Assembly (NCBI GenBank): GCA_016192685.1
Contig: JACPTS010000001.1
Coordinates: 97,710 to 161,709, forward strand
Reading direction: 5' to 3'
From: Candidatus Harrisonbacteria bacterium
GTDB taxonomy: Bacteria > Patescibacteriota > Minisyncoccia > UBA6257 > 02-FULL-45-10c
Length of the DNA: 64,000 nucleotides
Both the position numbers and the translations under genes were made by a program. Below are positions 171 through 53,880 of the stretch, piece after piece. The stretch's first letter is position 1, and the number at the start of each line of letters is the position of its first letter. The notes under the pieces were generated by a model. The model saw only the letters and a list, made by a program, of their open reading frames with translations. It searched no databases and was not told where the DNA came from.

Positions 171-623
171 TCAATTCCTTTCTTCTATATCCTCTATTTT
201 TCTTAACCGGCGCTGATGCCGCTCCTCTCCGGAAAACGAAGTGGCGAGCCAGACCGAAAGAATTTTTTTGGCGTCCTCTTCATTAAGATAATCGGCGGCC
301 AAACTTAAAACATTAGCATTGTCGTCGCTCCGGGAAGTCGCTGCTTGCTCAGTATTAAAAGCGAGGGCCGAACGGACATTTTTAAATTTATTGGCCGCCA
401 CATCCACGCCCACGCCGGAACCGCAAATTAAAATTCCCCGGGAATTTTCCGAATCCAAACTGATTTTCCGCGCTGCCAAAGCCGCGAAGTCCGGATAATC
501 ATCTGTTGGCACGTATTTATCATTTCCAACATCCACTACTTCATAACCGCTCTCTTTTAAATAATTTTTAAGGGATTCTTTAAGCTGAAATCCCCGATGG
601 TCTGCGCCAATATAAATAAGCAT
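171..623 (-). CDS. rpiB: ribose-5-phosphate isomerase B (RpiB/LacA family)
   Basis: 150 aa. N-terminal IYIGADHRGF and the ICGSGVGVDVAANK block are characteristic of RpiB. Confidence 0.88.
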   Translation of the reverse strand: MLIYIGADHRGFQLKESLKNYLKESGYEVVDVGNDKYVPTDDYPDFAALAARKISLDSENSRGILICGSGVGVDVAANKFKNVRSALAFNTEQAATSRSDDNANVLSLAADYLNEEDAKKILSVWLATSFSGEERHQRRLRKIEDIEERN

Positions 624-742
624 ATTTAATTCAAAATTTAAAAATCAAAATGCAAAATTTTTGAATTTGTTTTTAACAAAATTTTAAAAGAATTTTTTAA
701 TTTTGAATTATCATTTTTCATTTTGATATTTACATTTTACAT

Positions 743-1765
743 TTACAAAGTTTCTGCCGCTTTTAAAACATGCCCAACTAAAGTCGCCACATACCCGGCT
801 TCATTGTCGTACCAAGAAAACACGCTTACCAAATCGCCATCCACTACTTGAGTAAATTTCAAATCTACAATCGCGCCATGGAGATCGCCAATTATATCCG
901 AGGAAACCAGCTGATCTTCAGTAACCTTTAAAATTCCCTGCCAGCGTTTTTCTTTAGCCGCTTTTCTAAAAATTTTATTGACTTCTTCAACGCTGGTTTT
1001 TCTTTTGGTAAGAAAAGTAATAACCCCCATGGAACCGCTGACAATCGGCACCCGCAGCGCCACGCCGTCAAATTTTCCCTCCAATTCCGGCAACGCCCGC
1101 ACCACGGAAATCGCCGCCCCGGTAAAAGACGGCGCAATGTTCTGCGCCGCCGCCCGGCCGCGCCGGAAATCCTTTCCTCTAGTCGGGCCGTCAACTAAAT
1201 TTTGGGTGGCGGTATAGCCATGAACCGTATTTAAAAACGCTTTTTTAATCCCGACAGTTTCCGACATTACCGCTACCACCGGCGAAGTGGCATTAGTGGT
1301 GCAGGAGCCGTTAGAGGTAATTTTACAAACTTTAAATTCCTCTTCATTTACGCCAAGCAAAACTGTTTTCGCGTCTTTCCGTTCCGCGTCTTTTGCCGGC
1401 GCGGTAATGACCACCTTTTTGGCACCGGCAGTCAGATGCACCGAAGCTTTTTCAAAAGATTCAAACGCGCCGGTGGATTCCACCGCAATATCAATTTTCA
1501 TTTCTTTCCAGGGTAATTTAACCGGGTCTTTCTCCTGAAACACCCTTACTCGTTTTCCGTCTATTACCAACTCATTATTTTTCACCTTTACTTCGTTGCC
1601 AAACTGCCGATAAACCGTGTCGTATTTCAAAAGATAAGCGAGATTTTCAATATCGCCCAAGTCATTAACAGCGACAATGTCCAAATTTTTATTATTCCAA
1701 ACCTGCCGGAAAAATAGCCGGCCAATCCGCCCAAAACCATTAATTGCGATTCGCGTTTTTGCCAT
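743..1765 (-). CDS. gap: glyceraldehyde-3-phosphate dehydrogenase, type I
   Basis: 340 aa. N-terminal INGFGRIGR Rossmann motif and catalytic SNGSCTTN block (variant of SNASCTTN). Length and C-terminal WYDNE motif fit GAPDH. Confidence 0.92.
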   Translation of the reverse strand: MAKTRIAINGFGRIGRLFFRQVWNNKNLDIVAVNDLGDIENLAYLLKYDTVYRQFGNEVKVKNNELVIDGKRVRVFQEKDPVKLPWKEMKIDIAVESTGAFESFEKASVHLTAGAKKVVITAPAKDAERKDAKTVLLGVNEEEFKVCKITSNGSCTTNATSPVVAVMSETVGIKKAFLNTVHGYTATQNLVDGPTRGKDFRRGRAAAQNIAPSFTGAAISVVRALPELEGKFDGVALRVPIVSGSMGVITFLTKRKTSVEEVNKIFRKAAKEKRWQGILKVTEDQLVSSDIIGDLHGAIVDLKFTQVVDGDLVSVFSWYDNEAGYVATLVGHVLKAAETL

Positions 1766-1783
1766 AAAAAATTATTCTTTTAA

Positions 1784-2977
1784 TTATACAACTTTCTTGT
1801 GCTGATTTAAATGAATGAATACCAGAAGTCCCGCTGCCATCATCACCGCTCCGTAAAGAATAGCCACGTCAGAGCCAAATTTAGTCCAAATCAGGCCGCC
1901 GATTACTCCGGCAAAAAGCGAGGAAATTCCGACTGCCGCATTCAAAAATCCTTGTCCGCTCGCCAGTCTGCCGGCCGGCACCAGCCTGGAAGCCAGCGCC
2001 CGCTCTATTCCGTCGGTCATTGCTGAATATAAACCCAAAATAATAAAACCAAAAACTGTTCCGATAATAGTTGATAGAAAATAAAGATTAGCATAAGCGA
2101 TAATGGCCGCGAGAAATCCGCCAGCCAGCACTTTTTTCTCGCCAATCCAGTCGGCTAACTTTCCAGCCGGAATCGCAAAAATTACAAAAGAAAGATTATA
2201 GATAAAATACATAAGAGGGATGGAAAATCCGTTCAGACCGACTTCTTGAGATTTTAAAAGCATCAGCGGAACCGGCATAAATCCCAATCCAAAAAGAAAA
2301 ACTGCCAAAATATATTCTTTAAAAGCAGTACTGTATCCGCTAAGCGAAAAAGTAAACGGCGGCTTAACCGCTGTTTCTTGACCAGTCGTTTCTTTCTTAA
2401 CGTCTTTTACAAAAACAAAAGTTACCACCGCTAAAATTCCAGCCGCAAAGCCAATTTTAAAAATCGCGCGATAGTCATTCAGAAAAACCGGCAAAAGCGC
2501 CACTGCCGCCAGCGGCCCCAGAGTGGCGCCAACGGTATCCATGGCCCGGTGATAACCAAAAGATTTTCCAAGCTCGCCGGATTCCACTGATTCGGAAATC
2601 AGCGCGTCCCGCGGCGAATCCCGCAAGCCCTTGCCAACCCTGTCAATCGCCCGCAACGCAAACACCTGCCAAAAACCAGTCACTAACGCCAAAAACCAGC
2701 GGGTGGAAACGGAAAGCGCGTAACCGGTCACTGCCAGAATTTTCCGCTTGCCGATTTTATCGGAAAACCAGCCAAAATAAATTTTTAAAACGCTGGCCAG
2801 CGCGTCGGCAAAACCCTCAATCAATCCTACCAAAACCGGCGGCGCGCCAAGAGTAATAGTTAAAAAAGCCGGCATCACCGACTGAATCATCTCGGATGAA
2901 AAATCATTCAATAAGCTTACTAAACCGAGAAAAAATACATTCCGCCGCAGGCCAAAAATTCTTCGTTCGTTTCCCAT
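1784..2977 (-). CDS. MFS transporter
   Basis: 397 aa with about 12 predicted TM helices. MFS-like GxxxDRxGRR-type loop (FSDKIGKRK) after TM2. Confidence 0.78.
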   Translation of the reverse strand: MGNERRIFGLRRNVFFLGLVSLLNDFSSEMIQSVMPAFLTITLGAPPVLVGLIEGFADALASVLKIYFGWFSDKIGKRKILAVTGYALSVSTRWFLALVTGFWQVFALRAIDRVGKGLRDSPRDALISESVESGELGKSFGYHRAMDTVGATLGPLAAVALLPVFLNDYRAIFKIGFAAGILAVVTFVFVKDVKKETTGQETAVKPPFTFSLSGYSTAFKEYILAVFLFGLGFMPVPLMLLKSQEVGLNGFSIPLMYFIYNLSFVIFAIPAGKLADWIGEKKVLAGGFLAAIIAYANLYFLSTIIGTVFGFIILGLYSAMTDGIERALASRLVPAGRLASGQGFLNAAVGISSLFAGVIGGLIWTKFGSDVAILYGAVMMAAGLLVFIHLNQHKKVV

Positions 2978-16020: not shown

Positions 16021-16050
16021 TCCCTCGATACATCGGGGGATTATTTTTTT
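16021..16050 (+). terminator. Rho-independent terminator (hairpin plus T-run)
   Basis: The hairpin tccctcgat-ac-atcggggga (9-bp stem, one U-G pair) is followed by ttattttttt, directly after the 15121-16020 gene. Confidence 0.7.
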
Positions 16051-42092: not shown

Positions 42093-43103
42093 TTAAAAGT
42101 CAGAATATTTTAATATCGTATTTTTAACCAAATCCCGTTTAGCTCTTTTTCCAAGCACCTTAGCCATTTCCGAAGAAGGAATTCCGGTCCCGGGCCTTTT
42201 GACTCCCAGCAGATCCTCGGTTATTTTGGTTCCCTTTGAAATATTTACATTGGCAACCAGACTGCGCCGGAAAGCTTTCCGCATTTCTTTTTCTCTCGCC
42301 CCGGGCGCGATATTTTTTTCATTGGAATTAACAGCTTTATCAAAAAATCTGATTTGCTCAGCCATCTTTTTAAATTCCGCCGGGTCAGCCGAACTTGGCT
42401 GGTCCGGGCCGGGCATGTTTTTATCCAAAGTAAAATGCTTTTCAATTATTTTAGCTCCCAAAGCAACCGCAGCAACCGGCGCGAAAATATCCAGAGTATG
42501 GTCAGAATAACCGATAATGTGTTCGGGGAAAGCTCTTTTTAAAATTCCAATTCTTTGCAAATTCAATTCTTCGGCTTTAGGCGGATACAGCGAAACACAG
42601 TGTAAAATCCCCAGATTCTTTTTCCGGTCTTTTAAAATTTGGACTGCTTCTTCTATTTCTTCCATATCTCCCAAGCCAACTGAAATAATTATCGGTTTTT
42701 TTGTTTTAACAACTTCCTTCAATAAAAAATGGTTATTTAAATCGCAAGAAGCAATTTTAAAAAGCGGGGCGCCGATTTTCTCCAGCATTGCGATTGACCG
42801 CTTTCCGAAAACCGACGCGAAAAAAATAATTCCTTCCTTTTTGGCAAAATCAGCCAATTTAACATAGTCATCGCCGGATAATTCCCAGCCCTTTAACATT
42901 TCAAAAAAACTCTGCCCGCCCTTAACATGCTCCGCTTTCCGCGCTTCCTCAATAATCAACTCTTCGGTTTTAAAGGCCTGAAATTTTACCGCGTCAGCAC
43001 CGCAGGCTTTTGCCGCGGTAATCAGTTTTTTAGCGGTCTCAAAATCACCGTTATGGTTAATACCGGCTTCGGCAATGATAAAAACGGAGTCTTTTTTAAA
43101 CAT
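42093..43103 (-). CDS. NeuB-family ulosonic-acid synthase (second copy)
   Basis: 336 aa. IIAEAGINHNGD, KFQ, YSDHT, IEKHFTLDK and a C-terminal SAF domain. Confidence 0.88.
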   Translation of the reverse strand: MFKKDSVFIIAEAGINHNGDFETAKKLITAAKACGADAVKFQAFKTEELIIEEARKAEHVKGGQSFFEMLKGWELSGDDYVKLADFAKKEGIIFFASVFGKRSIAMLEKIGAPLFKIASCDLNNHFLLKEVVKTKKPIIISVGLGDMEEIEEAVQILKDRKKNLGILHCVSLYPPKAEELNLQRIGILKRAFPEHIIGYSDHTLDIFAPVAAVALGAKIIEKHFTLDKNMPGPDQPSSADPAEFKKMAEQIRFFDKAVNSNEKNIAPGAREKEMRKAFRRSLVANVNISKGTKITEDLLGVKRPGTGIPSSEMAKVLGKRAKRDLVKNTILKYSDF

Positions 43104-43136: not shown

Positions 43137-44582
43137 TTAAGATGGCGCTGTTTCCAGCTCGGAAAGAATCAGCCGCGAAAGATTTTTAATGTTTTCTTCC
43201 TTGCTTATTCCGGAAAGTTCTTTTCCAACTAAATCAAAATAGGCCTGGACACTGGATTGATCCAGGGCCGCCAAGTAATTAAACATTAACTCGGGGCTAA
43301 CCCCGAATCCTTGCCGGATTCTCCAAATGGCATCTTTGCAACTTTCAACATTATTAACTTTGAAAACGCCGGAACATTCCTTATACCAGGGAAAACCAAA
43401 AACTAAAACCGGTTTTGCCCTCATTAACGCCTCCCAGCCCGCGGTTCCGCTCACCGTAGCCAATACCTGGCAATTTCTGATTAATTCATGGGTGCCGGTG
43501 GCCATTGGCACGAGGCGTACATTTGGCAATCGGGCAATAGATTTATAAAAACCTCGGTAACGGCAATTAAAAAAATTAAGCCCGCGAGGCAGCCACTGCG
43601 ACGGGTGCTCTTTTACATAAATCAGCCAATCAGAAGGAACGCTAGCGGCTAAAATCTCAATCATTAAAATTTGATTAACAAATACGCCGCCTTGAGGGCT
43701 GGAAGTCCGCTCCGGTTGATAATTCAGAGGGACGTAAATAAACGGTTTGGTAAAATCAGCGGGCAAGGCTACGCTTTCATATTCAGTTTTCAGGTTTTCG
43801 CGAAAAATTTTTGAAATAAAATTAAACGTTTTTCCAAAAAAAGTGAGGTTAACGAGGCTGTCCCTGATCATTTTAATTTTGGTAAAAATAGCTTTCTTCC
43901 CGATATAATTCTTTTTTAATTTTTGGATGTTCCGCGGAACCATATCGGATAATTGCTCTTGATAATGCCGCCGCATATCTTCCCGCAGATCCGCTAAAAC
44001 AAATTTCCGGCCCCGATTATCTTGCAATGCTTTCTCTAAAGATCGGCTGCCGATTCGATAATCATTCATTAATAACATCCGGTCAAATTGGACAATTCTT
44101 TCAAATATAATATTTTTTATATTTAACAATTCACATATGGAAAAAATAATAAAATCATAAACAGTATGGGGAATATCATTGTGGATGACAACATCCGGTT
44201 TCAAAGTTTGGATAACTCCGTACCAATACCGCACCAAGTCAAAATAAATTTGCTTCCGTTCGGAAACGCCGATATCTTTATATTTTTTATTCATCATGCT
44301 CAAAACTGCTGATTCGGCTTCATACAACTTTGCGATTAAATCCTCTCCCGGGGGGAAAAAATTAGAAGTGTTTATCTCCTTTGCGGGAAGGCCCGCCACA
44401 GCATCTTCATGAGAGTGCCAGATGACTCCGGAAAATTCTTTGCTGTCGGCGATTTTTCCTATACCAGTTCCAGCCCAAGTCCAATAAACAATTTTATGCG
44501 ATTGTTTCTGAAGTTCTTTGGCAACTTCCACCAATCCAAGACCGTCATCAACAGACCAGCCAATTATAAATATCCGTTTCAT
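43137..44582 (-). CDS. capsule-polysaccharide-biosynthesis-like protein (KpsC/KpsS/LpsZ, PF05159-like; putative ulosonic-acid transferase)
   Basis: 481 aa. FIYVPLNYQPE...QILMIE...IYVKEHPSQ...VSGTAGWEALM pattern. Paralog of 44579-46072. Confidence 0.5.
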   Translation of the reverse strand: MKRIFIIGWSVDDGLGLVEVAKELQKQSHKIVYWTWAGTGIGKIADSKEFSGVIWHSHEDAVAGLPAKEINTSNFFPPGEDLIAKLYEAESAVLSMMNKKYKDIGVSERKQIYFDLVRYWYGVIQTLKPDVVIHNDIPHTVYDFIIFSICELLNIKNIIFERIVQFDRMLLMNDYRIGSRSLEKALQDNRGRKFVLADLREDMRRHYQEQLSDMVPRNIQKLKKNYIGKKAIFTKIKMIRDSLVNLTFFGKTFNFISKIFRENLKTEYESVALPADFTKPFIYVPLNYQPERTSSPQGGVFVNQILMIEILAASVPSDWLIYVKEHPSQWLPRGLNFFNCRYRGFYKSIARLPNVRLVPMATGTHELIRNCQVLATVSGTAGWEALMRAKPVLVFGFPWYKECSGVFKVNNVESCKDAIWRIRQGFGVSPELMFNYLAALDQSSVQAYFDLVGKELSGISKEENIKNLSRLILSELETAPS

Positions 44583-46072
44583 AATTTTGGCAATTCCGCC
44601 GCTATAAAATCAGCGATATTTTTCATGCTTTCCGATTGAGATAAATCAGAACCCTCGCCGGCCGAAGGCGCCCGATAACCCCGAATCCCTGCTTTTCCCA
44701 AGCTTTTCAAATAATTAATTGTTAGTTGGGGGTCAACTTTAAAGCCATTGACAATTTTATTGACGGCGTCCCGGCAAGAAGAAACATCCCGAACGAGAAA
44801 AATTCCCGGACAATCCAAATACCAAGGATAACCGAAAATAATCGCCGGCTTGGACCAGAGCGTCGCTTCCCAACCGGGAGCGCCGGAGGCCGTCGCCACT
44901 GCCTGGGATTCTTTAATTAATCGGTAGGAATTCGTTTCCACTGGAATAATTTTAACATTTTTAATTTCGGAAATTTTTTGATAATAGCCGCGATTTTTAT
45001 AATTGGAAAATCCCAAACCGAAACGAAGCCATTGAAGCGGATGTTCTTTCACGTAAATAATCCAATTTTCCGGCAAAGCGGCGGACAATGTTTCCAGCAT
45101 CAGAATCTGGTCAACAAAAACATCGCCTTGCGGAGCAGTGGAACATTCCGGCTGAACCTGTAACGCGACATAAATAAATTTCTTGGAAAAATCCGGAGCA
45201 GACTCAAAACTCCGGTATTCTTTTTTTAAATTATCCTGAACCGCGTAAGAAATGTTAAAAAATAATTTTTTAATCCAGCGCCGATAATTCCTACTCCCCC
45301 ACTTCCACCGTAAATAACCAAAAGATTTCCAAAAAATAGTTCCGTCTTGGATACTCGCTCTTACTTTTGAAATAAACAGCGGGTCTACCAAAGAATATTT
45401 CTTTTTTAGAAACCTCAGATTCCCCGGCATTTCATTGAAATCCTTTTTTGTCGTTCTTAAATAATACTTCCGGATATCCTCCGGCAAATCATCAACGCTG
45501 AAGTTTTTCTCCCGATTGAACTCCAATTCTTTTTGAAGCCGCTCACTGCCCAGCCAAAAATCTTTTAACGGCAATAATCGGCCGGGAATCCTGGTATCAA
45601 CAAAAGTAAGAACCTTAATTCCCAGAAGTTTAGCTAGGGAATAAAGAACAAAATCGTAAGAATTATGAGGAATATAGGAAAGAATCACGGCTTCCGGCTG
45701 ATATTTTTTTAACACGCCGAACCAATATTGAACCAGATGATAATAAAAATGCTTGCGCCTGTTAACCTCGTCTTTAAAAACCAAATTCATCGGTACTAAA
45801 TTATTAAGCATGGTTAAAGTTAAAGATTCGGTTCTATAAAGTTTCTCAATTAAATCAGTTCCCGGCGGCAAAAAATCAGACATATCAATACCAGCGGCTG
45901 GCCTGCCGTTCATCGCGTCTCCAAAAAAATGAAATATCGCTTCCGGCGGCTTAAATTCATCCGCGCCCTCGGAACCGACAAAATAAACAATTTCGTGATT
46001 ATGTTTTTTAAGCTCCGAGATAAGATGGATGAATTGCTGGCCCTTGTCCGGCCAAACCAAAATTAGTTTCAT
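44579..46072 (-). CDS. capsule-polysaccharide-biosynthesis-like protein (KpsC/KpsS-like paralog)
   Basis: 497 aa. FIYVALQVQPE...QILMLE...IYVKEHPLQ...ASGAPGWEATL. There is a 4-nt ATGA overlap with the downstream paralog. Confidence 0.5.
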   Translation of the reverse strand: MKLILVWPDKGQQFIHLISELKKHNHEIVYFVGSEGADEFKPPEAIFHFFGDAMNGRPAAGIDMSDFLPPGTDLIEKLYRTESLTLTMLNNLVPMNLVFKDEVNRRKHFYYHLVQYWFGVLKKYQPEAVILSYIPHNSYDFVLYSLAKLLGIKVLTFVDTRIPGRLLPLKDFWLGSERLQKELEFNREKNFSVDDLPEDIRKYYLRTTKKDFNEMPGNLRFLKKKYSLVDPLFISKVRASIQDGTIFWKSFGYLRWKWGSRNYRRWIKKLFFNISYAVQDNLKKEYRSFESAPDFSKKFIYVALQVQPECSTAPQGDVFVDQILMLETLSAALPENWIIYVKEHPLQWLRFGLGFSNYKNRGYYQKISEIKNVKIIPVETNSYRLIKESQAVATASGAPGWEATLWSKPAIIFGYPWYLDCPGIFLVRDVSSCRDAVNKIVNGFKVDPQLTINYLKSLGKAGIRGYRAPSAGEGSDLSQSESMKNIADFIAAELPKL

Positions 46073-47928
46073 AGATTTGAATTTTTATTTAAATGGTATA
46101 TTTGATAAAAATAAGATTGCGGCTGTCGCAAAAGTTCCTGCGGCGCGCCGCTTTCCACAATGCGGCCTCCATCCAATACCAAAATCCTGTCAAATTCCCT
46201 AACCGTAGAAAGCCGGTGCGCGATCGCAAAAACCGTAATTTTGCCGCGCAAATCCGCGATTGCTTTCTGAATAAGCGCTTCTGATTCATTATCCAAAGCG
46301 CTGGTGGCCTCGTCAAGAATTAAAATCTCGGGTTTTCGCGCCAAAACTCTGGCTAGCGCGATTCTTTGTTTCTCTCCGCCGGAAAGACGGACTCCTCTTT
46401 CACCAACTATAGTTTCAAATTGCTCGGGAAGATTTTTAATAAATTCATAAATATTGGCCATTTTTGCCGCTTCAATAATATCCTCTTTATTCATCGCGGG
46501 GTCGTAAAATTTAATATTATTCAAAATAGTATCGTTAGTTAAAAAAACATCTTGAGACACATAGCCGATATTTGTTCTCCATTCCCGCAAACTGATGTCA
46601 GCCGCGTCTTCTCCGTCCAACAAAATTACTCCGCTCTTTGGTTTAAACAAACGCAAAAGCAAATCAACAATCGTGGTCTTGCCGGCGCCGGAAGAGCCGA
46701 CTAATCCCAATAATTCTCCCTTTTTAATATAAAAATTGTTATGGGACAATATTTCCTTCTGGCCGTCATAATCAAAACCGACATCCTTAAATTCCAAGCT
46801 ATGGCGGAAAGAAAAATTTTTTCTTCCGGAATCCGTTTCTTTATTGCTCGCGGCCTCTTCGCGGTAAGCCAAAACGCTGGCAAGCGACGGAATCAAAGAA
46901 TTCCACACATATACTTCCGATTGGGCCGCCTGAATACCGGCAAAAACCCTGTTAATCGCGTAAACCGCCACCGCGAAAGAACCGAGATTAAACGCGCCGC
47001 TTTTATAAAAAAAAGTAAATACGCCGACAATAAACAAAATGCCTACCGGCTGGAGCATCGCGGTATTAAAACTGCCGAGTTCTCCGATTTTAATTTGTAA
47101 ATTCTTTATATCGTCAAAATATGCTTCGCCTTTTCGCAATGCCCGCTCCTCGGCAAACATTGATTTAATGGATTTCATCCCGATAATATTCTCATTCACG
47201 TAATGGGCCAAATCTTTGGATCTTTGGACCATTTTCTGGGACAGGTTTCTGGTTTTATTGAATAACGGCTTAAATAAAAATAATATTGCCCCGCCAAAAA
47301 CAATAGCCAATACCGCGACCCAAAAAGAAACATTTACCACCAATAAACTATAAATGGCGATATTAACCGCTATTAAAAATGCGGAACTGATATGAGCCAG
47401 TAAGGCCGAACTATCTTTGACATTGGCCACTAAAATCTGATCCAAATGCCCGACTTTTTGCTTAGAAAGATAAGACCAATCGCCGGCAAAAGTTAATTTT
47501 AAAAGCTCCAGCCGGGTTTTTTTCTGGTAATCTCCGATAATAACATTGGTAATATATTGGCCGGCAAATAACAAAATAGCCTTAATAAAAAATAACAGCA
47601 AAATAAAAATAAGCAGGTATTGAATCGTAAAATTTATATTGGAATAAATAAAAAAACTCTCTATCGCTCTGGAAATAACATCGTTTGCCGGAACGTTATT
47701 TTTATCGGCAAAAGAAAGCAGGGGGATAATCGCGTTTATCCCGAAACCTTCCAGAATTCCGCTAAAAAAAGTCAGAACTGCCATAATCGCAATCTGCGAT
47801 TTATACTGCCCGAAAGCTTCTTTTAATAATCGCAACCATTCCGAAAATTTATATTTTTTATTGACCATATACTTCAATATAACCCTAAAAAATAAAAATG
47901 AGTTACCCGCTTTGGCACTCATTTTCAT
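46069..47928 (-). CDS. ABC transporter, fused permease/ATPase (MsbA-like exporter)
   Basis: 619 aa. Six TM helices, then Walker A GSSGAGKTT, signature LSGGEKQRIALAR and Walker B ILILDEATSALD. Confidence 0.9.
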   Translation of the reverse strand: MKMSAKAGNSFLFFRVILKYMVNKKYKFSEWLRLLKEAFGQYKSQIAIMAVLTFFSGILEGFGINAIIPLLSFADKNNVPANDVISRAIESFFIYSNINFTIQYLLIFILLLFFIKAILLFAGQYITNVIIGDYQKKTRLELLKLTFAGDWSYLSKQKVGHLDQILVANVKDSSALLAHISSAFLIAVNIAIYSLLVVNVSFWVAVLAIVFGGAILFLFKPLFNKTRNLSQKMVQRSKDLAHYVNENIIGMKSIKSMFAEERALRKGEAYFDDIKNLQIKIGELGSFNTAMLQPVGILFIVGVFTFFYKSGAFNLGSFAVAVYAINRVFAGIQAAQSEVYVWNSLIPSLASVLAYREEAASNKETDSGRKNFSFRHSLEFKDVGFDYDGQKEILSHNNFYIKKGELLGLVGSSGAGKTTIVDLLLRLFKPKSGVILLDGEDAADISLREWRTNIGYVSQDVFLTNDTILNNIKFYDPAMNKEDIIEAAKMANIYEFIKNLPEQFETIVGERGVRLSGGEKQRIALARVLARKPEILILDEATSALDNESEALIQKAIADLRGKITVFAIAHRLSTVREFDRILVLDGGRIVESGAPQELLRQPQSYFYQIYHLNKNSNL

Positions 47929-47949: not shown

Positions 47950-48549
47950 TTAATCTGTAATGCTCCAGTTATAATCGCCTTTGCTGGCGCGATAGAGTTT
48001 GCATTTTTTAATGTCCGCGGAAGAAAGACTAAGCGCTTCACAATCTAAATTAGAATTAAAATCAATAGTTGTCAGCGTGCTTCTGGAAAGATTAATAGTG
48101 CTGCCAAGAGCGTAATTATCCGAAGAGCTGGGATTGCTAGCGGTATTAGCGGATTGCGACGCCGGTTGAATAATATTGCCGTTAACATCCACTAAAGCGC
48201 CATTTGGCAAACGAAAAGTTCCTGATGGCAAAGATGGGGCTGGAGATGGAGTGGGCGGAGCCGGTGAAGCTTTTTTCAACGCTTCCAAAAATTGGGCGGT
48301 TTGCGCCAATTTCTCTTCTATTTCCGTTTTTTTGGTTTTTGCCGTGGTCTGAACAACTGATTTTTCTTCTTTTTCCGGCTGACTAATGGCCGCTTCCTGA
48401 ACTATCTCCTGACTGCTGGTTGCGGCGACCGGCGCTTCGAAAACCCCGCTTTGTGGGGCTAAAGGCGCGGAAACCAAACCAACCGCCACTAAAATCGTTA
48501 CGGCAACGGACGCTATTTTATTAAAAACTGCGCTTAAAAATCCCCACAT
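47950..48549 (-). CDS. hypothetical secreted/anchored protein with a Pro-rich linker
   Basis: 199 aa. N-terminal TM, then KLAQTAQFLEALKKASPAPPTPSPAPS, the same style as the repeats in the 23454-24386 protein. Confidence 0.45.
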   Translation of the reverse strand: MWGFLSAVFNKIASVAVTILVAVGLVSAPLAPQSGVFEAPVAATSSQEIVQEAAISQPEKEEKSVVQTTAKTKKTEIEEKLAQTAQFLEALKKASPAPPTPSPAPSLPSGTFRLPNGALVDVNGNIIQPASQSANTASNPSSSDNYALGSTINLSRSTLTTIDFNSNLDCEALSLSSADIKKCKLYRASKGDYNWSITD

Positions 48550-48574: not shown

Positions 48575-50074
48575 TTAAAATTTCAAAATATGCCCCTGAA
48601 CAGTTAAAATCAGCTCTACAATTTCCCGAACCGCGTGCTGCCCGCCCTTGGCTGCCGCGACATAATCAACAATGGATCTTATTCTCGGATGGGCATCGGC
48701 AACCGTGATTGATACTCCAACCACATTAAAAACCGCTTCATCATTTAAATCATCGCCAATATAAGCCGCTTCTTTTTGAGAAAATCCGTACTCCGACATA
48801 ATCCTTTTTAAAATTTCCGCTTTTCCGCCGGCATCGGCTACGCCTTGCGAACATTTAATATTCCAAGTTTTACAACGGGCAGCCACTACCGGATTAATTG
48901 TTTTAGAAATGACGTAGGGTGTGATGCCAAACCGTTTCAGCATTTCAATGCTTAAACCATCTTTACGGCTGCAACGCACGGTTTCTTTCCCGTTTTGGTC
49001 AATATAAACAAATCCATCGGTTAGCACGCCGTCAAAATCCATTGCCAATAACTTAACATTTTTTAACTTTTCGGCTAATTCTTGATTAGAAAACCAGATC
49101 GCCCTCCTGGGAAAAATAATTCTTACCATCGCCCAAGACTTATCATCAAATAACACGAAAGCCAGTAAAAAAATCAGTGTGCCGAACGCCTTAAAAAAAG
49201 TCGCCGGCTCGCCAAAAAACAAAACTCCAAAAATCATCGTCATAATCAAATAACTGCTGTTCATTACCAAATTTTTAAAAGCGATAAAAGCGCCAAATTT
49301 ATAACTTAAAAGATTGAAAATCAAGGCGCCGACAAAAAATACGCTGGTACCGGCCGCTGCTAACCAAAACTTCCGCATTGACAAAGAAAAATCAGCTAAT
49401 AACTCAACCTGATTTAACCAAAATAATCCTCCCAAAGAAACCAAAATCGTTGCTAAACCTCCCCAAAAACTCAATGTCAAAGGATGAGATTCTTTAATCC
49501 ATTGGGCAATCCCTTGAATAACCGCCAAAAGCAGCATCACCGCAAAAGACAATTCAATCCAAAGCGGCAAATTAGAAATCTCCGCCAAAGACGGATAACC
49601 GAGAACTGTATATCCGGCTGCTGCGGCAAACACAATGCCTAAAATCTTCCGAAAATTTAAGGTATTGCCGAAAAGAAAATAACCAATCAGCGCTCCGGGA
49701 ACTATGGATAAAGTAACAATTAAAGTATTGACGCCTACATCTCCGCCGCTAGCAAAAACCAAAAAAGTGAGGATAGTGGCAACTGAAAAAATAATCCCAT
49801 ATAAAATTGCTCCGAAAATATGTTTTGGGGCATCCAGAATACTGCCTAAAGATTTATCAGTAAGTCCCCGGCTGACAGCATAAATAACCTGAAACAAACC
49901 AATAACTAAAGTAGCGGCATAAGCATGGCCAAAAGTAACGCTGAGCTGGCCGACGGATTTCTGAAATAACTTAGCTCCAGTTTTAAAAACCGCTTCCAGC
50001 AAAATCCATTTCATCCAGGACTCACCGGCCATCTTTCTGCCATCCCAAAATATCTTTAAAAAATTATTTGCCAT
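48575..50074 (-). CDS. polytopic membrane domain fused to a KdsC-family (HAD-IIIA) ulosonate-phosphate phosphatase
   Basis: 499 aa. About 330 aa with 9-10 TM helices, then LLAMDFDGVLTDG...GDDLND...KGG, which is the KdsC/YrbI signature. Confidence 0.75.
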   Translation of the reverse strand: MANNFLKIFWDGRKMAGESWMKWILLEAVFKTGAKLFQKSVGQLSVTFGHAYAATLVIGLFQVIYAVSRGLTDKSLGSILDAPKHIFGAILYGIIFSVATILTFLVFASGGDVGVNTLIVTLSIVPGALIGYFLFGNTLNFRKILGIVFAAAAGYTVLGYPSLAEISNLPLWIELSFAVMLLLAVIQGIAQWIKESHPLTLSFWGGLATILVSLGGLFWLNQVELLADFSLSMRKFWLAAAGTSVFFVGALIFNLLSYKFGAFIAFKNLVMNSSYLIMTMIFGVLFFGEPATFFKAFGTLIFLLAFVLFDDKSWAMVRIIFPRRAIWFSNQELAEKLKNVKLLAMDFDGVLTDGFVYIDQNGKETVRCSRKDGLSIEMLKRFGITPYVISKTINPVVAARCKTWNIKCSQGVADAGGKAEILKRIMSEYGFSQKEAAYIGDDLNDEAVFNVVGVSITVADAHPRIRSIVDYVAAAKGGQHAVREIVELILTVQGHILKF

Positions 50075-51002
50075 GATTAACTAACTCCTCACAAATCTTT
50101 TTTGCAACCGCATATTGAGTTTCCGGAGTAAAAGTAGCAATATGCGGCATGGCAATAACTTTCGGGTGAGAAATCAAACGCTTAAGAATTTCATTATTAA
50201 ACGGCGGCTCTTCGGAAAATACGTCCAAAGCAACGCCGGCAACCCACCCGGATTCAACCGCCGCCAGCAACGCCTTTTCATCTGTCACTTCTCCGCGCGA
50301 AGTATTAATTACATAGGCTCCTGGTTTTAATAAAGATAATAATTTTTCATTAACTATTTGCTTGGTAAGGTCAGTCAATGGCACATGGAAAGTAATAAAA
50401 TCGCTTTTTTGAAGCAAGGTTTCCAATTCTGATTTTTCCACGCCAATACTCTTTAAAAAATCTTCATCATAGACTATATCATTTGCCAGCACCCGCATCC
50501 CTAAATTTCGCGCCATTTTCGCAACCTCTTTGCCGATATTTCCCAAACCGACGATTCCAAGAGTTTTCCCGGAAACTTGCGTTGCCGATGTCCGTTTCCA
50601 CTTGCCTTCTCTCATGTCATTGGCAAACGGCACGATATTGCGAGCCAAAGTAAAAATAAAAGCCATGGTCAGCTCGGCAACCGAATGTTTATTAATGCCG
50701 GGAAAAAACTTTAACGCAATTCCCCGCTCTTCCAGCGCCGGAATATCAATATGTTCTAACCCCACTCCAAATGGCATTACCACTTTAAGATTGGGAAATA
50801 GCGAAAATTCTTTTTTGCCAACCGGCAATAAAGCTCCGGCTACCATCGCCGCCACCTCTTCGGGATTAAAAGAAAATGGCGGGTTAAGCCGCTCATCTAG
50901 CACAACGCGCCAACTATGCTCATCTAAAAATTCCGCCAGGTCAGGAGAACGGACAATAGTATTAGAAAATGACGGAGTGGTGGTAAGAACTATTTTGGCC
51001 AT
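50064..51002 (-). CDS. D-isomer-specific 2-hydroxyacid dehydrogenase
   Basis: 312 aa. GKTLGIVGLGNIGKEVA and the catalytic R/E/H arrangement with PHIA. Confidence 0.85.
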   Translation of the reverse strand: MAKIVLTTTPSFSNTIVRSPDLAEFLDEHSWRVVLDERLNPPFSFNPEEVAAMVAGALLPVGKKEFSLFPNLKVVMPFGVGLEHIDIPALEERGIALKFFPGINKHSVAELTMAFIFTLARNIVPFANDMREGKWKRTSATQVSGKTLGIVGLGNIGKEVAKMARNLGMRVLANDIVYDEDFLKSIGVEKSELETLLQKSDFITFHVPLTDLTKQIVNEKLLSLLKPGAYVINTSRGEVTDEKALLAAVESGWVAGVALDVFSEEPPFNNEILKRLISHPKVIAMPHIATFTPETQYAVAKKICEELVNHGK

Positions 51003-52165
51003 GGATGCTGTTTCAAGGCTTTTTCATTTATTTCCGTGCCCCAGCCTGGTCCTTTCGGAAGTTCCATCTGGCCGTTAATAATCTTCGGAACATTGGTAAC
51101 CACCTCATCCCGCCACGGCACATCTTCCACATCCAATTCCATAATCCGAAGATTGGGAATCACCGCAGAAAGCTGGGCGCTGATAAAAGTCGCCAAATGC
51201 CCGTTATGGTTATGAGGCGCAAAATTCATTTCCTGTAATTCCGCCAAGGCCGCGATTTCTTTAGCGCGGATAAATCCATTCCAGGTCGGATTGGAAATAA
51301 CAATATCCATGGCATGGCGTTCCAAATAAGGACGATATTGCCTCGCGCCGTAAAGGTCTTCACCGGAAGCAATTGGAATTTTTACTGAATCCCTAATCAA
51401 CCGAAGCGCGCCTGGATCATAAGAATCCAGTTCCAGCCACATCAAATTGTATTTTTCCAGCATCCGGCCAATTTTAATAAAGCCCTCGGTTTTAAAATTA
51501 AAATTAAGGTCTAAAATAATATCTATATCATCGCCGGCAGCATCGCGAAGCGCGCTTGCCCACTTATCAATCGCTTTCAATTTATAATTATCAACATTCA
51601 GTTCTGGCCAGCCATCGCTTTTAGCAAAGCCCGCCATATAAATTTCCGGCTTCTCGCCAAAAAATGCGACTTTCGGCTTAATCACTTTAAAACCGGAGGA
51701 TTTTACCTCTTTAATTAACTCTTTTAACTCGCTAAGCGACTGCATCTGCGGTTTGCCGATCGCGGCCGCGTCCCGAACCCGGGAAGTGGCAAAATGCGAC
51801 CAGTATAAAGGAATGGTCTCGCGGACTGGCCCACCAAATAATTCGTAAACCGGAACGCTTAAAGCTTTTGCTTTAATATCTAAAAGCGCGTTTTCAATGC
51901 CGCCAATGGCTTTTTGAATAATACTGCCCGGACTCTGCCGAGTCCGCGAATACATCAGCCAGTATAATTTTTCCACCAAACGCGGGTCCTGACCAACTAA
52001 AAGCGAACTTAAATCTTTAATAACTCCCTCAAGTCCGCGCGGCGAGCCATGGGAATCAGAGCATTCGCTCCAGCCAACCAAACCTTCATCTGTGGAAATT
52101 TTAACAAAAGTCCACGGCCGCCAGCCCGCATCACAATATAAAGCTTCTACTTTAGTAATAACCAT
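50990..52165 (-). CDS. enolase-superfamily (mandelate racemase/muconate lactonizing enzyme-like) sugar-acid dehydratase
   Basis: 391 aa. Capping domain plus TIM-barrel acid residues (IDIILDLNFNF, LDSYD pattern). Confidence 0.75.
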   Translation of the reverse strand: MVITKVEALYCDAGWRPWTFVKISTDEGLVGWSECSDSHGSPRGLEGVIKDLSSLLVGQDPRLVEKLYWLMYSRTRQSPGSIIQKAIGGIENALLDIKAKALSVPVYELFGGPVRETIPLYWSHFATSRVRDAAAIGKPQMQSLSELKELIKEVKSSGFKVIKPKVAFFGEKPEIYMAGFAKSDGWPELNVDNYKLKAIDKWASALRDAAGDDIDIILDLNFNFKTEGFIKIGRMLEKYNLMWLELDSYDPGALRLIRDSVKIPIASGEDLYGARQYRPYLERHAMDIVISNPTWNGFIRAKEIAALAELQEMNFAPHNHNGHLATFISAQLSAVIPNLRIMELDVEDVPWRDEVVTNVPKIINGQMELPKGPGWGTEINEKALKQHPWPK

Positions 52166-52169
52166 TTTA

Positions 52170-52886
52170 TTATTTATTTAAATTATTCTTTAAATATTCG
52201 GCCACCATAAAATCCACTTCCGAATCAATGTCCACTGACCGGTCTTGTGGAACAATATAAGGCCGAATCCGCTCTCCGGTAATGGAATTATACTTGGAAA
52301 GTATATGGGGACGAAAAGCGACTAAATTAGCGCGAAAATAGGCCTTGGCATATCCTTGCCTAAGCAGAGGCGCCGCGTCTTTCGGGTCACCGCTGATATA
52401 GCCAACCACTAATTCTCCTCCCTTACCGTCCGGGACCAATTTTAAAGCTTTTGCCGGATGCTGGCTTGCCAGTGCCATTACAATAGAAGAGTCTGCTTCC
52501 GGATCATTTAAAAGCGCTTCCACGGCGCCGTCAAAATCGCCAGGCTGCTGAAAAGGCACGGTCGGCATTCCGCGCACCACTAAATCCGGCTCATAACTTT
52601 CATTTTCCCGAAGCCAATTTACCGCGTGATTCACATAATCAAAATCAGTGGATTTATCGCCGGAAAATTCTGCCGGCCGCAAAAATGGCGTTTCCGCGCC
52701 ATAATCTCTTGCCACTTTGGCATATTCTTCTGAATCAGTGGAAATAATCACCCGATTAACATATTTTGATTTTTTCGCCGCCTCAATAACCCAAGCCAAC
52801 AGCGGCTTTCCGCCAAGCAATTTTATATTTTTATTCGGAACGCCTTTTGAGCCGGAACGGGCGCCGATCAAAGCCAAAACCGTCAT
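52170..52886 (-). CDS. acylneuraminate cytidylyltransferase family (second CMP-sugar synthetase)
   Basis: 238 aa. LALIGARSGSKGVPNKN. Confidence 0.85.
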   Translation of the reverse strand: MTVLALIGARSGSKGVPNKNIKLLGGKPLLAWVIEAAKKSKYVNRVIISTDSEEYAKVARDYGAETPFLRPAEFSGDKSTDFDYVNHAVNWLRENESYEPDLVVRGMPTVPFQQPGDFDGAVEALLNDPEADSSIVMALASQHPAKALKLVPDGKGGELVVGYISGDPKDAAPLLRQGYAKAYFRANLVAFRPHILSKYNSITGERIRPYIVPQDRSVDIDSEVDFMVAEYLKNNLNK

Positions 52887-52898
52887 TGATATTACAAC

Positions 52899-53810: not shown

Positions 53811-53880
53811 AATATCGTAATTATATAACCCGCAAACAATACAAATAGTAATAAAAAAATACCCGTATTCTACAGGTATT

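What the first reader, a model, noticed from the sequence alone, without database searches (positions are those of the whole stretch)
48575..50074. Fusion of a 9-10-TM membrane domain to a KdsC-family ulosonate-phosphate phosphatase
KdsC/YrbI-type HAD phosphatases (Kdo-8-P, Neu5Ac-9-P and Kdn-9-P phosphatases) are small soluble enzymes. Here the complete KdsC module (LAMDFDGVLTDG...GDDLNDE...KGG) is the C-terminal third of a polytopic membrane protein. Inference: the dephosphorylation step of a 9-phosphate ulosonate route may be membrane-tethered and coupled to a transport or sensing function. The N-terminal domain has no motif I can name.
Basis: partly seen in the sequence, partly recalled or inferred. 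Interest (0 to 1): 0.6.

Follow-up and report, generated by a model that had tools for sequence, protein, structure and literature searches.

The report
Membrane transporter fused to sugar-acid phosphatase
A candidate-phyla-radiation bacterium encodes one protein that joins a ten-helix transporter-type membrane domain, from an uncharacterised family almost always found inside sialic-acid-like sugar gene clusters, to a cytoplasmic KdsC-type phosphatase; the fusion is real, rare and undescribed, and it ties that transporter family to the sugar pathway.

Summary
Window 48575..50074 (-) is one 499-aa ORF with a 10-TM N-terminal domain and a complete C-terminal KdsC/YrbI-type HAD phosphatase (TIGR01670 above cut-off, all catalytic motifs intact).

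It is not a frameshift artefact. The same uninterrupted fusion occurs in six independent loci at 69-100% identity, and the junction is conserved. Two GenBank "stand-alone KdsC" entries are truncated gene calls.

It is a DMT/EamA-fold permease (AF2 pLDDT 94; Foldseek hits every solved 10-TM DMT, with the CMP-sialic acid transporter best by E-value). It belongs to a family of about 228 clusters, found only in Patescibacteria/CPR genomes where taxonomy could be read. Its other members are stand-alone proteins of about 300 aa. They lie next to a CMP-nonulosonate synthetase gene, with NeuB and NeuC nearby, in all but one locus with complete flanks.

The positive-inside rule (13.3 vs 2.1 K+R) puts the phosphatase in the cytoplasm. 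Fusion loci show no NeuC in the DNA held. Stand-alone loci have NeuC and no close KdsC relative. This fits a phosphorylated ulosonate route.

The permease's substrate is unresolved. This is a new variant of known kinds, of moderate interest.

The parts
48575..50074 (-). Whole fusion gene, 499 aa plus stop codon (NCBI MBI3046063.1, 'HAD hydrolase family protein', Candidatus Harrisonbacteria MAG)
49145..50074 (-). DMT/EamA-fold membrane domain, residues 1-310. Ten TM helices at about 19-44, 48-72, 83-108, 113-135, 141-157, 171-192, 198-219, 231-259, 264-287 and 293-309. N-in/C-in topology.
   Evidence: Pfam EamA 29.3 bits vs cut-off 28.2 on the domain alone. AF2 pLDDT 93.9, pTM 0.90. Foldseek probability 1.0 to all solved 10-TM DMT structures. 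Positive-inside rule, 13.3 vs 2.1 K+R.
49058..49144 (-). Cytoplasmic linker, residues 311-339 (DDKSWAMVRIIFPRRAIWFSNQELAEKLK). Short helices, conserved in all four fusion orthologs.
48578..49057 (-). KdsC/YrbI-type C0 HAD phosphatase domain, residues 340-499. Motif I: D346, D348. Motif II: S390. Motif III: K418. Motif IV: D441, D442, D445.
   Evidence: TIGR01670 115.9 bits vs cut-off 106.95. PDB KdsC hits at about 1e-25. Foldseek TM-score (target-normalised) about 0.7 to KdsC structures. Motif residues invariant in alignment A2.
50064..51002 (-). D-2-hydroxyacid dehydrogenase (PGDH/glyoxylate-reductase-like), translationally coupled upstream gene. Homologs accompany the DMT gene in about 21 loci.
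52170..52886 (-). CMP-ulosonate synthetase (CTP_transf_3). It is the window paralog orthologous to the cytidylyltransferase linked to the DMT gene in every other locus.
50990..52165 (-). Enolase-superfamily acid-sugar dehydratase-like gene, inserted between the cytidylyltransferase and the dehydrogenase. Present in the window and L014, absent in L009.
46069..47928 (-). MsbA/PglK-like ABC exporter, conserved downstream of the fusion (window, L008, L014, L033)
43137..46072 (-). Two tandem Capsule_synth (KpsC/KpsS-like) transferase paralogs, putative CMP-ulosonate-dependent transferases
42093..43103 (-). NeuB-family ulosonate synthase, following the transferases as in L033. Candidate source of the phosphorylated ulosonate.
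47950..48549 (-). 199-aa protein with an N-terminal TM anchor and no family hit. Conserved in L033 (237 aa), absent in L008.

Best explanation
The gene encodes a bifunctional cytoplasmic-membrane protein.

Phosphatase half. The C-terminal domain is an active KdsC-type (C0 HAD) phosphatase on the cytoplasmic face. It hydrolyses a phosphorylated 3-deoxy-2-ulosonic acid, most likely a nonulosonate 9-phosphate such as Kdn-9-P or Neu5Ac-9-P. That substrate would be made from a sugar 6-phosphate by a NeuB-family synthase. The free acid is then CMP-activated by the cytidylyltransferase encoded two genes upstream. The KpsC/S-like transferases and the ABC exporter encoded downstream would then use the activated sugar.

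Permease half. The N-terminal domain is a functional 10-TM DMT/EamA-fold permease from a subfamily seen only in CPR genomes, and that subfamily is a regular component of NulO gene clusters. It moves a small molecule of that pathway. The free ulosonate or its CMP-activated form are the leading candidates; the substrate is unresolved.

The fusion arose once, in one Harrisonbacteria/Tagabacteria-labelled clade. There the usual NeuC (non-phosphorylated) route appears to have been replaced by a phosphorylated route. The fusion places the last de novo step at the membrane beside the permease and the glycan assembly and export machinery.

Shown: the fusion, both folds, the topology, intact catalytic motifs, the genomic linkage.
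Inferred: the phosphatase substrate, that the permease transports at all, what it transports, and any kinetic coupling.
For: - The fusion is real and conserved.
- KdsC subfamily cut-off is met and all four HAD motifs are invariant.
- The closest relatives of the phosphatase domain (40-48% identity) are phosphatase domains fused to CMP-NulO synthetases. NeuB-NeuA-KdsC and KdsD-KdsC fusions also occur, so this domain habitually fuses to partners of the same pathway.
- DMT fold.
- Cytoplasmic location of the HAD domain.
- Stand-alone members of the DMT subfamily lie within 10 kb of CTP_transf_3 in 22 of about 26 distinct loci. Only one locus with full flanks is an exception. NeuB, NeuC and 2-HADH are also usually present.
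- The linked cytidylyltransferase is always the ortholog of window 52170-52886.
- A KdsC domain of this type occurs only in fusion loci (L022 has an unrelated 28%-identical gene), and those loci show no NeuC in the DNA held (none in the 64-kb window). This matches the known split between phosphorylated and non-phosphorylated sialic acid routes described in PMC6200933.
- The fusion clade keeps 50-56 of 64 family-conserved positions, including the TM1 glutamate E27, K39, Q62, FWGG 203-206, K267 and N272. This argues for a still-functional permease.
Against: - No substrate is assigned. Both the KdsC and the KDN-9-P phosphatase equivalog cut-offs fail.
- The motif-II region (VISKT) resembles neither the E. 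coli KdsC nor, from memory, the Bacteroides KDN9PP pattern.
- Neither window NeuB is a clear ortholog of the NeuB genes linked to the DMT elsewhere (31-36% identity), so the source of the phospho-ulosonate is uncertain.
- Cytoplasmic transferases, a Wzx and an ABC exporter already account for glycan assembly and export, which leaves no obvious need for a small-molecule permease.
- The window/L033 lineage has lost three family-invariant residues: D131G, N202S and W251L.
- NeuC absence is shown only for the locus, not for the genome.
- KdsC enzymes are tetramers with inter-subunit active sites (textbook knowledge, not tested here). How that fits a 10-TM fusion is unknown.
Confidence: 0.55

Rival explanations
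1. Anchor only. The DMT domain no longer transports anything. It only tethers the phosphatase to the membrane, where the transferases and the ABC exporter assemble the glycan (a membrane metabolon).
For: - The window/L033 proteins have substitutions at three positions invariant in stand-alone members (D131G, N202S, W251L), and 14 of 64 conserved positions differ.
- Membrane tethering of a NulO enzyme has a precedent: the Prymnesium CMP-Kdn synthetase has a C-terminal TM anchor (PMC6200933).
- The fusion is always followed by an ABC exporter and KpsC/S-like transferases.
Against: - A single helix would be enough for tethering.
- The other three fusion orthologs keep D131, N202 and W251.
- All four keep E27, K39, Q62, W172, FWGG, Y258, K267 and N272.
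- The membrane domain is 65-77% identical among fusion orthologs, so it is under purifying selection.
- Fourteen mismatches is within the range of the stand-alone members (maximum 15).
Confidence: 0.15
2. Prokaryotic analogue of the CMP-sialic acid transporter. The DMT exchanges CMP-NulO for CMP across the cytoplasmic membrane to feed an extracytoplasmic sialylation step. The fused phosphatase supplies the pathway at the membrane.
For: - The best Foldseek hits by E-value are the mouse CMP-sialic acid transporter structures (6xbo 2.2e-7, 6oh3 6.4e-7), ahead of LicB and YddG.
- The gene is almost always adjacent to the CMP-NulO synthetase gene.
Against: - Identity is only 14-16%.
- SLC35B1, Vrg4 and TPT score within about one order of magnitude and have higher TM-scores.
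- None of 132 family members hits the Pfam NST, TPT or UAA models; 106 hit bacterial EamA.
- The candidate transferases in these loci (Capsule_synth, Glyphos_transf) belong to families that work in the cytoplasm.
- No conserved polytopic or extracytoplasmic transferase co-occurs.
- Losing CMP outside the cell would be costly for a nucleotide auxotroph (inference).
Confidence: 0.12
3. Flippase for a lipid-linked intermediate (for example an undecaprenyl-phosphate-linked sugar), by analogy with the ArnE/ArnF and SMR/DMT-type glycolipid flippases.
For: - A few family members hit the SMR Pfam model weakly (4 of 132).
- The loci encode Wzy_C/TPR proteins, and one encodes a faint YfhO-like protein, both of which would use lipid-linked donors outside the membrane.
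Against: - Wzx (Polysacc_synt) or ABC exporters are already present in many of these loci.
- No polyprenyl-phosphate glycosyltransferase is consistently present.
- The KdsC domain's other fusion partners all handle soluble sugar acids.
Confidence: 0.1
4. The permease carries an unrelated solute that the locus needs (for example S-adenosylmethionine for the many methyltransferases, or nucleotides), or it is a general metabolite exporter. The fusion to KdsC would then be a neutral accident between neighbouring genes.
For: - Methyltransferase genes are frequent neighbours.
- Rickettsial and chlamydial SAM carriers are EamA-type DMTs (background knowledge, not tested).
- One family member (L021) sits in a non-glycan context.
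Against: - No stand-alone locus has a kdsC gene next to the DMT gene from which an accidental read-through fusion could arise. The only nearby KdsC-like gene (L022) is 28% identical and 9.5 kb away.
- The linkage is tightest to the cytidylyltransferase, not to the methyltransferases.
- The fusion has been kept across 69-100% sequence divergence.
Confidence: 0.08
5. Artefact: two separate genes joined by a sequencing or assembly error.
For: GenBank holds 155-aa and 174-aa 'KdsC' proteins from related MAGs.
Against: Those records' own DNA encodes uninterrupted 499-aa and 498-aa ORFs. The fusion is seen in at least six independent loci from NCBI, ENA, JGI and Logan. The junction is conserved at the protein level.
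Confidence: 0.01

Closest known systems
KdsC/YrbI (Kdo-8-P phosphatase) and BT1713 (KDN-9-P phosphatase): C0-type HAD phosphatases
   Same: Same fold and subfamily (TIGR01670 cut-off met). All four catalytic motifs are present. The beta-hairpin region between motifs I and II is conserved. The genomic role is in a CMP-ulosonate pathway.
   Different: The known enzymes are small soluble proteins. This one is the C-terminal third of a 10-TM membrane protein. It fails both equivalog cut-offs, so the substrate is unassigned. Its motif-II neighbourhood (VISKTINPVV) is closest to the uncharacterised Streptomyces protein 3mmz.
Bifunctional CMP-NulO synthetase-phosphatase proteins (CTP_transf_3 + KdsC-like domain, about 400 aa; also the vertebrate CMAS C-terminal domain, PDB 3ewi)
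   Same: These carry the closest relatives of the phosphatase domain (40-48% identity). They follow the same logic of fusing the phosphatase to another component of the ulosonate pathway.
   Different: The fusion partner here is a membrane permease, not the cytidylyltransferase, which is encoded separately two genes upstream.
10-TM DMT superfamily transporters with solved structures (CMP-sialic acid transporter SLC35A1, SLC35B1, Vrg4, TPT, LicB, YddG)
   Same: Same 5+5 ten-helix fold with both termini cytoplasmic. Foldseek probability 1.0, TM-score 0.57-0.78. Like LicB next to LicC, the gene lies beside a cytidylyltransferase gene.
   Different: Only 11-16% identity. A family profile gives no sequence-level hit to any PDB chain. 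Only the bacterial EamA Pfam model matches. The family was found only in CPR genomes, is linked to NulO clusters, and has no characterised member.
P-type ATPases (HAD-fold P-domain joined to a transport domain)
   Same: This is the general precedent for a HAD-superfamily catalytic domain joined covalently to a membrane transport domain (background knowledge, not tested here).
   Different: Here the HAD module is a complete, self-contained KdsC-type sugar-acid phosphatase with no nucleotide-binding or actuator domain. It is appended after the last TM helix, not inserted between helices. Nothing suggests phospho-aspartate-driven pumping.

Membership tests
KdsC/YrbI subfamily of HAD phosphatases (TIGR01670, type C0) | Score at or above the curated subfamily cut-off | tested here: met
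   115.9 bits vs cut-off 106.95, residues 340-493
KdsC/YrbI subfamily of HAD phosphatases (TIGR01670, type C0) | Four HAD catalytic motifs (DxDx[TV]; S/T; K; GDDxxD) | tested here: met
   D346/D348 (DFDGV), S390, K418 and D441/D442/D445, all invariant in the four fusion orthologs
KdsC/YrbI subfamily of HAD phosphatases (TIGR01670, type C0) | Cap-less Rossmannoid core of about 160 aa that superposes on KdsC structures | tested here: met
   Foldseek probability 1.0, target-normalised TM-score 0.62-0.76 to 2p9j, 3mn1, 2r8e, 1k1e and others. The model is of modest confidence in this domain (pLDDT 40-86) because that part of the alignment has only 4 sequences.
KdsC/YrbI subfamily of HAD phosphatases (TIGR01670, type C0) | Homotetramer in which a neighbouring subunit caps the active site | not testable with these tools
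   The hairpin sequence (DGFVYIDQNGKETVRCSRKDG) is conserved, but no multimer prediction was available
Kdo-8-phosphate phosphatase KdsC (equivalog NF007019) | Score at or above the equivalog cut-off | tested here: not met
   119.3 bits vs cut-off 208. No KdsA or KdsD in the 64-kb window.
KDN-9-phosphate phosphatase (equivalog NF058599, BT1713 type) | Score at or above the equivalog cut-off | tested here: not met
   85.7 bits vs cut-off 180
DMT superfamily, EamA-type 10-TM transporters | Match to the Pfam EamA repeat | tested here: met
   29.3 bits vs cut-off 28.2 for the domain alone, which is marginal (27.0 bits in the full-length protein). 106 of 132 subfamily members match, best E = 1e-12.
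DMT superfamily, EamA-type 10-TM transporters | Ten TM helices in the DMT fold, both termini cytoplasmic | tested here: met
   AF2 pLDDT 93.9, pTM 0.90. Foldseek hits to all solved 10-TM DMTs and to nothing else below E = 1e-2. K+R 13.3 inside vs 2.1 outside.
DMT superfamily, EamA-type 10-TM transporters | Transport activity | not testable with these tools
   Only indirect evidence: a conserved membrane-embedded E27 and other polar residues are retained
Nucleotide-sugar transporters (SLC35/NST, including the CMP-sialic acid transporter) | Sequence-profile membership (Pfam Nuc_sug_transp, TPT or UAA) | tested here: not met
   0 of 132 members hit any of these at E <= 1. The family profile finds no PDB sequence at E <= 10.
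Nucleotide-sugar transporters (SLC35/NST, including the CMP-sialic acid transporter) | Closest structural neighbour is an NST | tested here: inconclusive
Nucleotide-sugar transporters (SLC35/NST, including the CMP-sialic acid transporter) | Conserved nucleotide- and sugar-binding residues; antiport with the nucleoside monophosphate | not testable with these tools
   No structure-based residue alignment or model coordinates were accessible
Bifunctional NeuA-KdsC (CMP-NulO synthetase-phosphatase) | CTP_transf_3 domain in the same polypeptide | tested here: not met
   No CTP_transf_3 hit in the protein. The cytidylyltransferase is a separate gene at 52170-52886.

The most novel reading that the evidence does not exclude
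The DMT subfamily seen only in CPR genomes is a dedicated nonulosonate-pathway carrier and a bacterial functional counterpart of the eukaryotic CMP-sialic acid transporter. It would move CMP-NulO (or the free NulO) across the cytoplasmic membrane. In the fusion clade, the tethered KdsC phosphatase, possibly working with the neighbouring HpcH-type aldolase and enolase-family genes in a NeuB/NeuC-independent route to a phosphorylated ulosonate, would form a membrane metabolon that channels newly made sugar acid to activation and export.
Probability: 0.12. Interest if true: 0.8.

Novelty: new variant of a known kind. Interest (0 to 1): 0.5.

Why it matters
**New pathway component.** Bacterial sialic-acid-like sugar pathways are usually described as soluble enzymes (NeuC/NeuB/NeuA and their Pse/Leg equivalents) plus transferases and polymer exporters. 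This locus, and about 25 related ones, show that in Patescibacteria a DMT-fold permease is a near-constant member of those clusters. In my four literature searches on this point, no paper linked a DMT/EamA protein to nonulosonate biosynthesis.

**Rosetta-stone evidence.** The covalent fusion to a KdsC-type phosphatase is independent evidence that the permease belongs to the pathway.

**A tractable entry point.** The soluble domain can be assayed. The permease can be reconstituted with a short list of candidate ligands (NulO, CMP-NulO, CMP).

**Database correction.** Two public MAG records list only a truncated 'KdsC' where the DNA encodes the full fusion.

**If the permease carries CMP-NulO.** It would be the first prokaryotic nucleotide-sugar carrier of this kind, and it would bear on how ultra-small episymbiotic bacteria build their surfaces.

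Tried and rejected
- **Frameshift or two-gene artefact: rejected.** The ORF is uninterrupted in six independent loci. The short GenBank proteins P0289 and P0292 are truncated gene calls.
- **Sensor function: rejected.** No signalling domains were found in Pfam or NCBIfam.
- **Sequence-level homology to eukaryotic nucleotide-sugar transporters: rejected.** 0 of 132 members hit the NST, TPT or UAA models, and the family profile has no PDB sequence hit.
- **L022's separate KdsC-like gene as the source of the fused domain: rejected.** It is only 28% identical.
- **A conserved extracytoplasmic or polytopic transferase that would require exported CMP-NulO: none found** that recurs across the loci.
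- **Assigning phosphatase specificity from curated equivalogs: failed.** Both are below cut-off. The Lu 2009 and Daughtry 2013 specificity papers could not be retrieved.
- **Literature searches** for DMT/EamA with nonulosonic, sialic, pseudaminic or legionaminic acid, or for CPR with NulO, found nothing relevant. The one EamA mention (PMC7910532) concerns an unrelated E. coli transposase fusion.
- **Promoter and terminator scan** of the operon gave only chance-level matches.
- **Assigning a cognate NeuB:** both window paralogs are equally distant (31-36% identity) from the NeuB genes linked to the DMT elsewhere.
Full report
**1. The observation**

Window 48575..50074 (minus strand) is one ATG-initiated ORF of 499 aa. 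The first ATG has a GAGGAG Shine-Dalgarno 10 nt upstream. It overlaps the stop codon of the preceding 2-hydroxyacid dehydrogenase gene, which indicates operon-type translational coupling. Two orthologs begin at the equivalent of Met15, so the true start may be Met15.

Residues ~331-496 reach the curated cut-off of the KdsC/YrbI subfamily model TIGR01670 (115.9 vs 106.95 bits). They match E. coli KdsC structures at E = 4e-25. The four HAD motifs are all present and invariant in the orthologs: D346/D348, S390, K418 and D441/D442/D445. The N-terminal two thirds are strongly hydrophobic.

**2. Is the fusion real?**

The exact protein is on record as NCBI MBI3046063.1, 'HAD hydrolase family protein', from a Candidatus Harrisonbacteria MAG. 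Among 5.8 billion non-redundant proteins, four 90%-identity clusters (P0001-P0004, 69-100% identical) have the same architecture. Their linker is conserved (DDKSWAM.R.I.P...FSN.ELA.KL).

Two GenBank proteins from older MAGs looked like separate KdsC genes: P0289 (155 aa) and P0292 (174 aa). I read the DNA of both records. L033 (MHQZ01000023.1) carries an uninterrupted 499-aa ORF at 315..1814, and the annotation leaves 1 kb uncalled. L014 (MHJG01000021.1) carries an uninterrupted 498/509-aa ORF, and the 174-aa entry starts at an internal non-ATG codon. The junction DNA in the window has no homopolymer run. The two-gene or frameshift refutation fails. The fusion is genuine and has been maintained across considerable divergence.

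**3. The N-terminal domain**

Pfam gives a marginal EamA hit: 27.0 bits in the whole protein and 29.3 bits for the domain alone, against a cut-off of 28.2.

An AlphaFold2 model of residues 1-324, built on a 132-sequence alignment, is very confident (pLDDT 93.9, pTM 0.90). It has ten TM helices. Foldseek against the PDB returns every solved 10-TM DMT protein, and nothing else below E = 1e-2:

| Structure | PDB entry | E-value |
|---|---|---|
| Mouse CMP-sialic acid transporter | 6xbo | 2.2e-7 |
| Mouse CMP-sialic acid transporter | 6oh3 | 6.4e-7 |
| SLC35B1 (TM-score up to 0.78) | 9i20 | 8.7e-7 |
| Vrg4 | 9s36 | 2.5e-6 |
| Triose-phosphate translocator | 5y78 | 6.9e-6 |
| LicB | 7paf | 2.1e-5 |
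| YddG | 5i20 | 4e-5 |
| PfCRT | 6ukj | 7.3e-4 |

The fold assignment is firm. The sub-family assignment is not:
- Identities are 11-16%.
- The E-value spread is small.
- A family profile finds no PDB sequence at all.
- 106 of 132 family members hit bacterial EamA, and none hits the NST, TPT or UAA Pfam models.

Across 31 family members, loops on the N-terminal side carry 13.3 Lys+Arg against 2.1 on the other side. With ten helices, both termini are cytoplasmic, and so is the phosphatase.

**4. The family and its genomic habit**

This is the key result. The membrane domain belongs to a small family: 228 representative clusters at 50% identity with E <= 1e-3, out of 1.84 billion. Of the best 150, only one (the fusion clade) is longer than about 370 aa. 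The rest are stand-alone proteins of about 300 aa, or fragments.

In a scan of one genome per species, 19 loci were recovered. All are from Patescibacteria/CPR MAGs (Harrison-, Taylor-, Yanofskybacteria, Parcubacteria, 'Saccharibacteria'), apart from one contig binned as Gammaproteobacteria.

I examined about 26 distinct loci:
- A CTP_transf_3 (CMP-nonulosonate synthetase) gene lies within 10 kb of the DMT gene in 22, and is often directly adjacent.
- A NeuB homolog accompanies it in about 20 of the 32 loci then held (not de-duplicated), NeuC (Epimerase_2) in about 19 and a D-2-hydroxyacid dehydrogenase in about 21.
- A small cupin (11), Wzy_C/TPR proteins (14), Glyphos_transf and methyltransferases also recur.
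- All but one of the loci that lack these genes are cut by a contig end. L021 is the only complete-flank exception (Dus, CorA, T4SS context).

The window has three CTP_transf_3 paralogs. The linked cytidylyltransferases in all other loci are always most similar to the one at 52170-52886, two genes upstream of the fusion. The unit of cytidylyltransferase, 2-HADH and DMT is therefore conserved. The N-terminal domain is not a common transporter fused by coincidence. It is an uncharacterised but regular component of CPR NulO clusters. My searches found no paper that links DMT/EamA proteins with nonulosonate biosynthesis.

**5. What distinguishes the fusion loci**

A KdsC domain of this type occurs only in the fusion loci (window, L008, L009, L014, L033). 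The one other KdsC-like gene, in L022, is 9.5 kb away and 28% identical.

Stand-alone loci have NeuC, and apart from L022 none shows a KdsC-like gene. Fusion loci show no NeuC in the DNA available, and there is none in the whole 64-kb window. Downstream of the fusion they carry an MsbA/PglK-like ABC exporter, two KpsC/KpsS-like (Capsule_synth) transferases and a NeuB.

This mirrors the known dichotomy in sialic acid synthesis. Most bacteria use NeuC to make a non-phosphorylated hexosamine and need no phosphatase. Bacteroides, haptophytes and animals condense a sugar 6-phosphate with PEP and then need a 9-phosphatase (PMC6200933).

The closest relatives of the fused phosphatase domain (40-48% identity) are KdsC-like domains fused to CMP-NulO synthetases. 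The same search shows NeuB-NeuA-KdsC, oxidoreductase-KdsC and KdsD-KdsC fusions. This domain habitually fuses with enzymes that handle the same soluble sugar acids.

**6. Best explanation**

The protein is bifunctional.

*Phosphatase (inferred with good support).* A cytoplasmic, catalytically competent KdsC-type phosphatase removes the terminal phosphate from a phosphorylated ulosonate. The free acid then goes to the neighbouring cytidylyltransferase and on to the KpsC/S-like transferases and the ABC exporter.

*Permease (inferred with weaker support).* The DMT domain is still a working permease for a solute of this pathway. Of 64 positions conserved in stand-alone members, 50-56 are retained. 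These include the membrane-embedded E27, K39, Q62, W172, FWGG 203-206, Y258, K267 and N272. The membrane domain is 65-77% identical among the fusion orthologs. The clade shares changes at otherwise conserved positions (W174, N186, K201), which could reflect an altered ligand.

*Caveats.*
- The window/L033 lineage has additionally lost D131, N202 and W251.
- Which solute is carried is unknown.
- Neither the KdsC nor the KDN-9-P phosphatase equivalog cut-off is met.
- Neither window NeuB is a clear ortholog of the NeuB genes linked to the DMT elsewhere.
- Glycan export is already covered by an ABC exporter and a Wzx.
- KdsC enzymes are tetramers with shared active sites (background knowledge). 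What that means for a 10-TM fusion could not be tested.

**7. Rivals**

Listed with my estimated probabilities.
- **Anchor only (0.15).** Favoured by the lineage-specific losses and by the precedent of a TM-anchored CMP-Kdn synthetase. Disfavoured by the overall conservation of a full ten-helix domain.
- **CMP-NulO/CMP antiporter analogous to SLC35A1 (0.12).** Favoured by the top Foldseek hit and the adjacency to the synthetase gene. Disfavoured by the absence of sequence-level relatedness, by transferases of cytoplasmic type, and by the lack of a conserved extracytoplasmic transferase.
- **Lipid-linked flippase (0.10).**
- **Unrelated solute with an accidental fusion (0.08).**
- **Assembly artefact (0.01).**

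**8. Comparison with known systems, and novelty**

The C-terminal domain is a member of the KdsC/YrbI C0-HAD subfamily. It is not demonstrably a Kdo-8-P or KDN-9-P equivalog. The N-terminal domain is a member of the DMT superfamily (EamA-type) and is not a member of the NST families by sequence. The combination has no described precedent. It is rare (one clade), and public annotation either calls it a generic 'HAD hydrolase family protein' or truncates it.

I rate it a new variant of known kinds. The broader point is the more valuable lead: a DMT family seen only in CPR genomes is a fixed part of nonulosonate clusters.

Interest is 0.5. It is a solid, testable and previously unremarked association, but there is no demonstrated new mechanism.

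Noticed in passing
L033 315-1814 (GenBank MHQZ01000023.1) and L014 9965-11494 (GenBank MHJG01000021.1): Public annotations of two 2016 RIFCSP MAGs call only a 155-aa or 174-aa 'KdsC' (OHA13831.1; OGY63576.1/OGY65664.1). The DNA encodes the full fusion of about 499 aa. The DMT part is left unannotated, and one entry starts at a non-standard internal codon.
   Followed up: yes
window 50064-55646 (-): A sub-operon beside the CMP-transferase (52170-52886) holds an HpcH/HpaI-type class II aldolase, two D-2-hydroxyacid dehydrogenases, a 'putative cyclase' and an enolase-superfamily acid-sugar dehydratase. It is syntenic in L014. This may be a NeuB/NeuC-independent route to, or a modification of, a 2-keto-3-deoxy sugar acid. 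The enolase gene is absent in L009.
   Followed up: partly
window 28282-63964: An unusually rich glycan locus of about 35 kb for a CPR genome: three CTP_transf_3 genes, two NeuB, two PseB-like dehydratases, three DegT aminotransferases, WbqC, PIG-L, several methyltransferases and a Wzy_C/TPR protein (26054-28240). This implies more than one nonulosonate type.
   Followed up: partly
window 43137-46072 (-): Two tandem Capsule_synth (KpsC/KpsS-like) paralogs also hit the NCBIfam 'BFO_1060 family glycosyltransferase' model weakly (20-27 bits vs cut-off 200). They may be CMP-ulosonate-dependent transferases. They are paired with an MsbA/PglK-like ABC exporter at 46069-47928.
   Followed up: partly
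window 48575-50074, residues 131, 202, 251: The window and L033 proteins carry D131G, N202S and W251L at positions that are 96-100% conserved in stand-alone family members and kept in the other three fusion orthologs. This could be relaxed constraint or a changed ligand in this sub-lineage.
   Followed up: partly
window 47950-48549 (-); L033 1872-2585: A small protein with an N-terminal TM anchor, a Pro/Ser/Ala-rich linker and a conserved C-terminal domain of about 70 aa containing two cysteines. It has no family hit. It sits between the fusion and the ABC exporter in the window and L033, and is absent in L008.
   Followed up: no
window 5682-9740 (-) and 16049-23158 (-): Two giant predicted surface proteins of 1352 and 2369 aa. 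They carry Lamin-tail (LTD), Big_5 and CarboxypepD_reg domains and a C-terminal peptidoglycan-binding domain. They flank the glycan locus and are possible glycosylation targets.
   Followed up: no
window 36678-37840 (-): A PTAC (phosphate propanoyltransferase-like) gene and a DUF218 gene sit inside the NeuB/PseB/DegT cluster. They might supply an unusual N-acyl group for a nonulosonate.
   Followed up: no
L010/L019 8527-10852; L012 8410-8802; also L015-L018, L020, L022: In 11 loci a small cupin gene (130-146 aa) lies immediately beside the DMT gene, usually preceded by the 2-HADH gene. L010 also has a second EamA paralog directly downstream of the DMT gene.
   Followed up: no
L021 10010-10984: This is the only family member with complete flanks that lies outside a glycan context (between Dus, CorA and a T4SS coupling protein). 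It is 41% identical to the window domain.
   Followed up: yes
L013 4973-7072: Two adjacent unannotated proteins with about 9 TM-like segments each (328 and 325 aa) lie between NeuB and the cytidylyltransferase in a DMT-containing NulO locus. They may be further membrane components.
   Followed up: no
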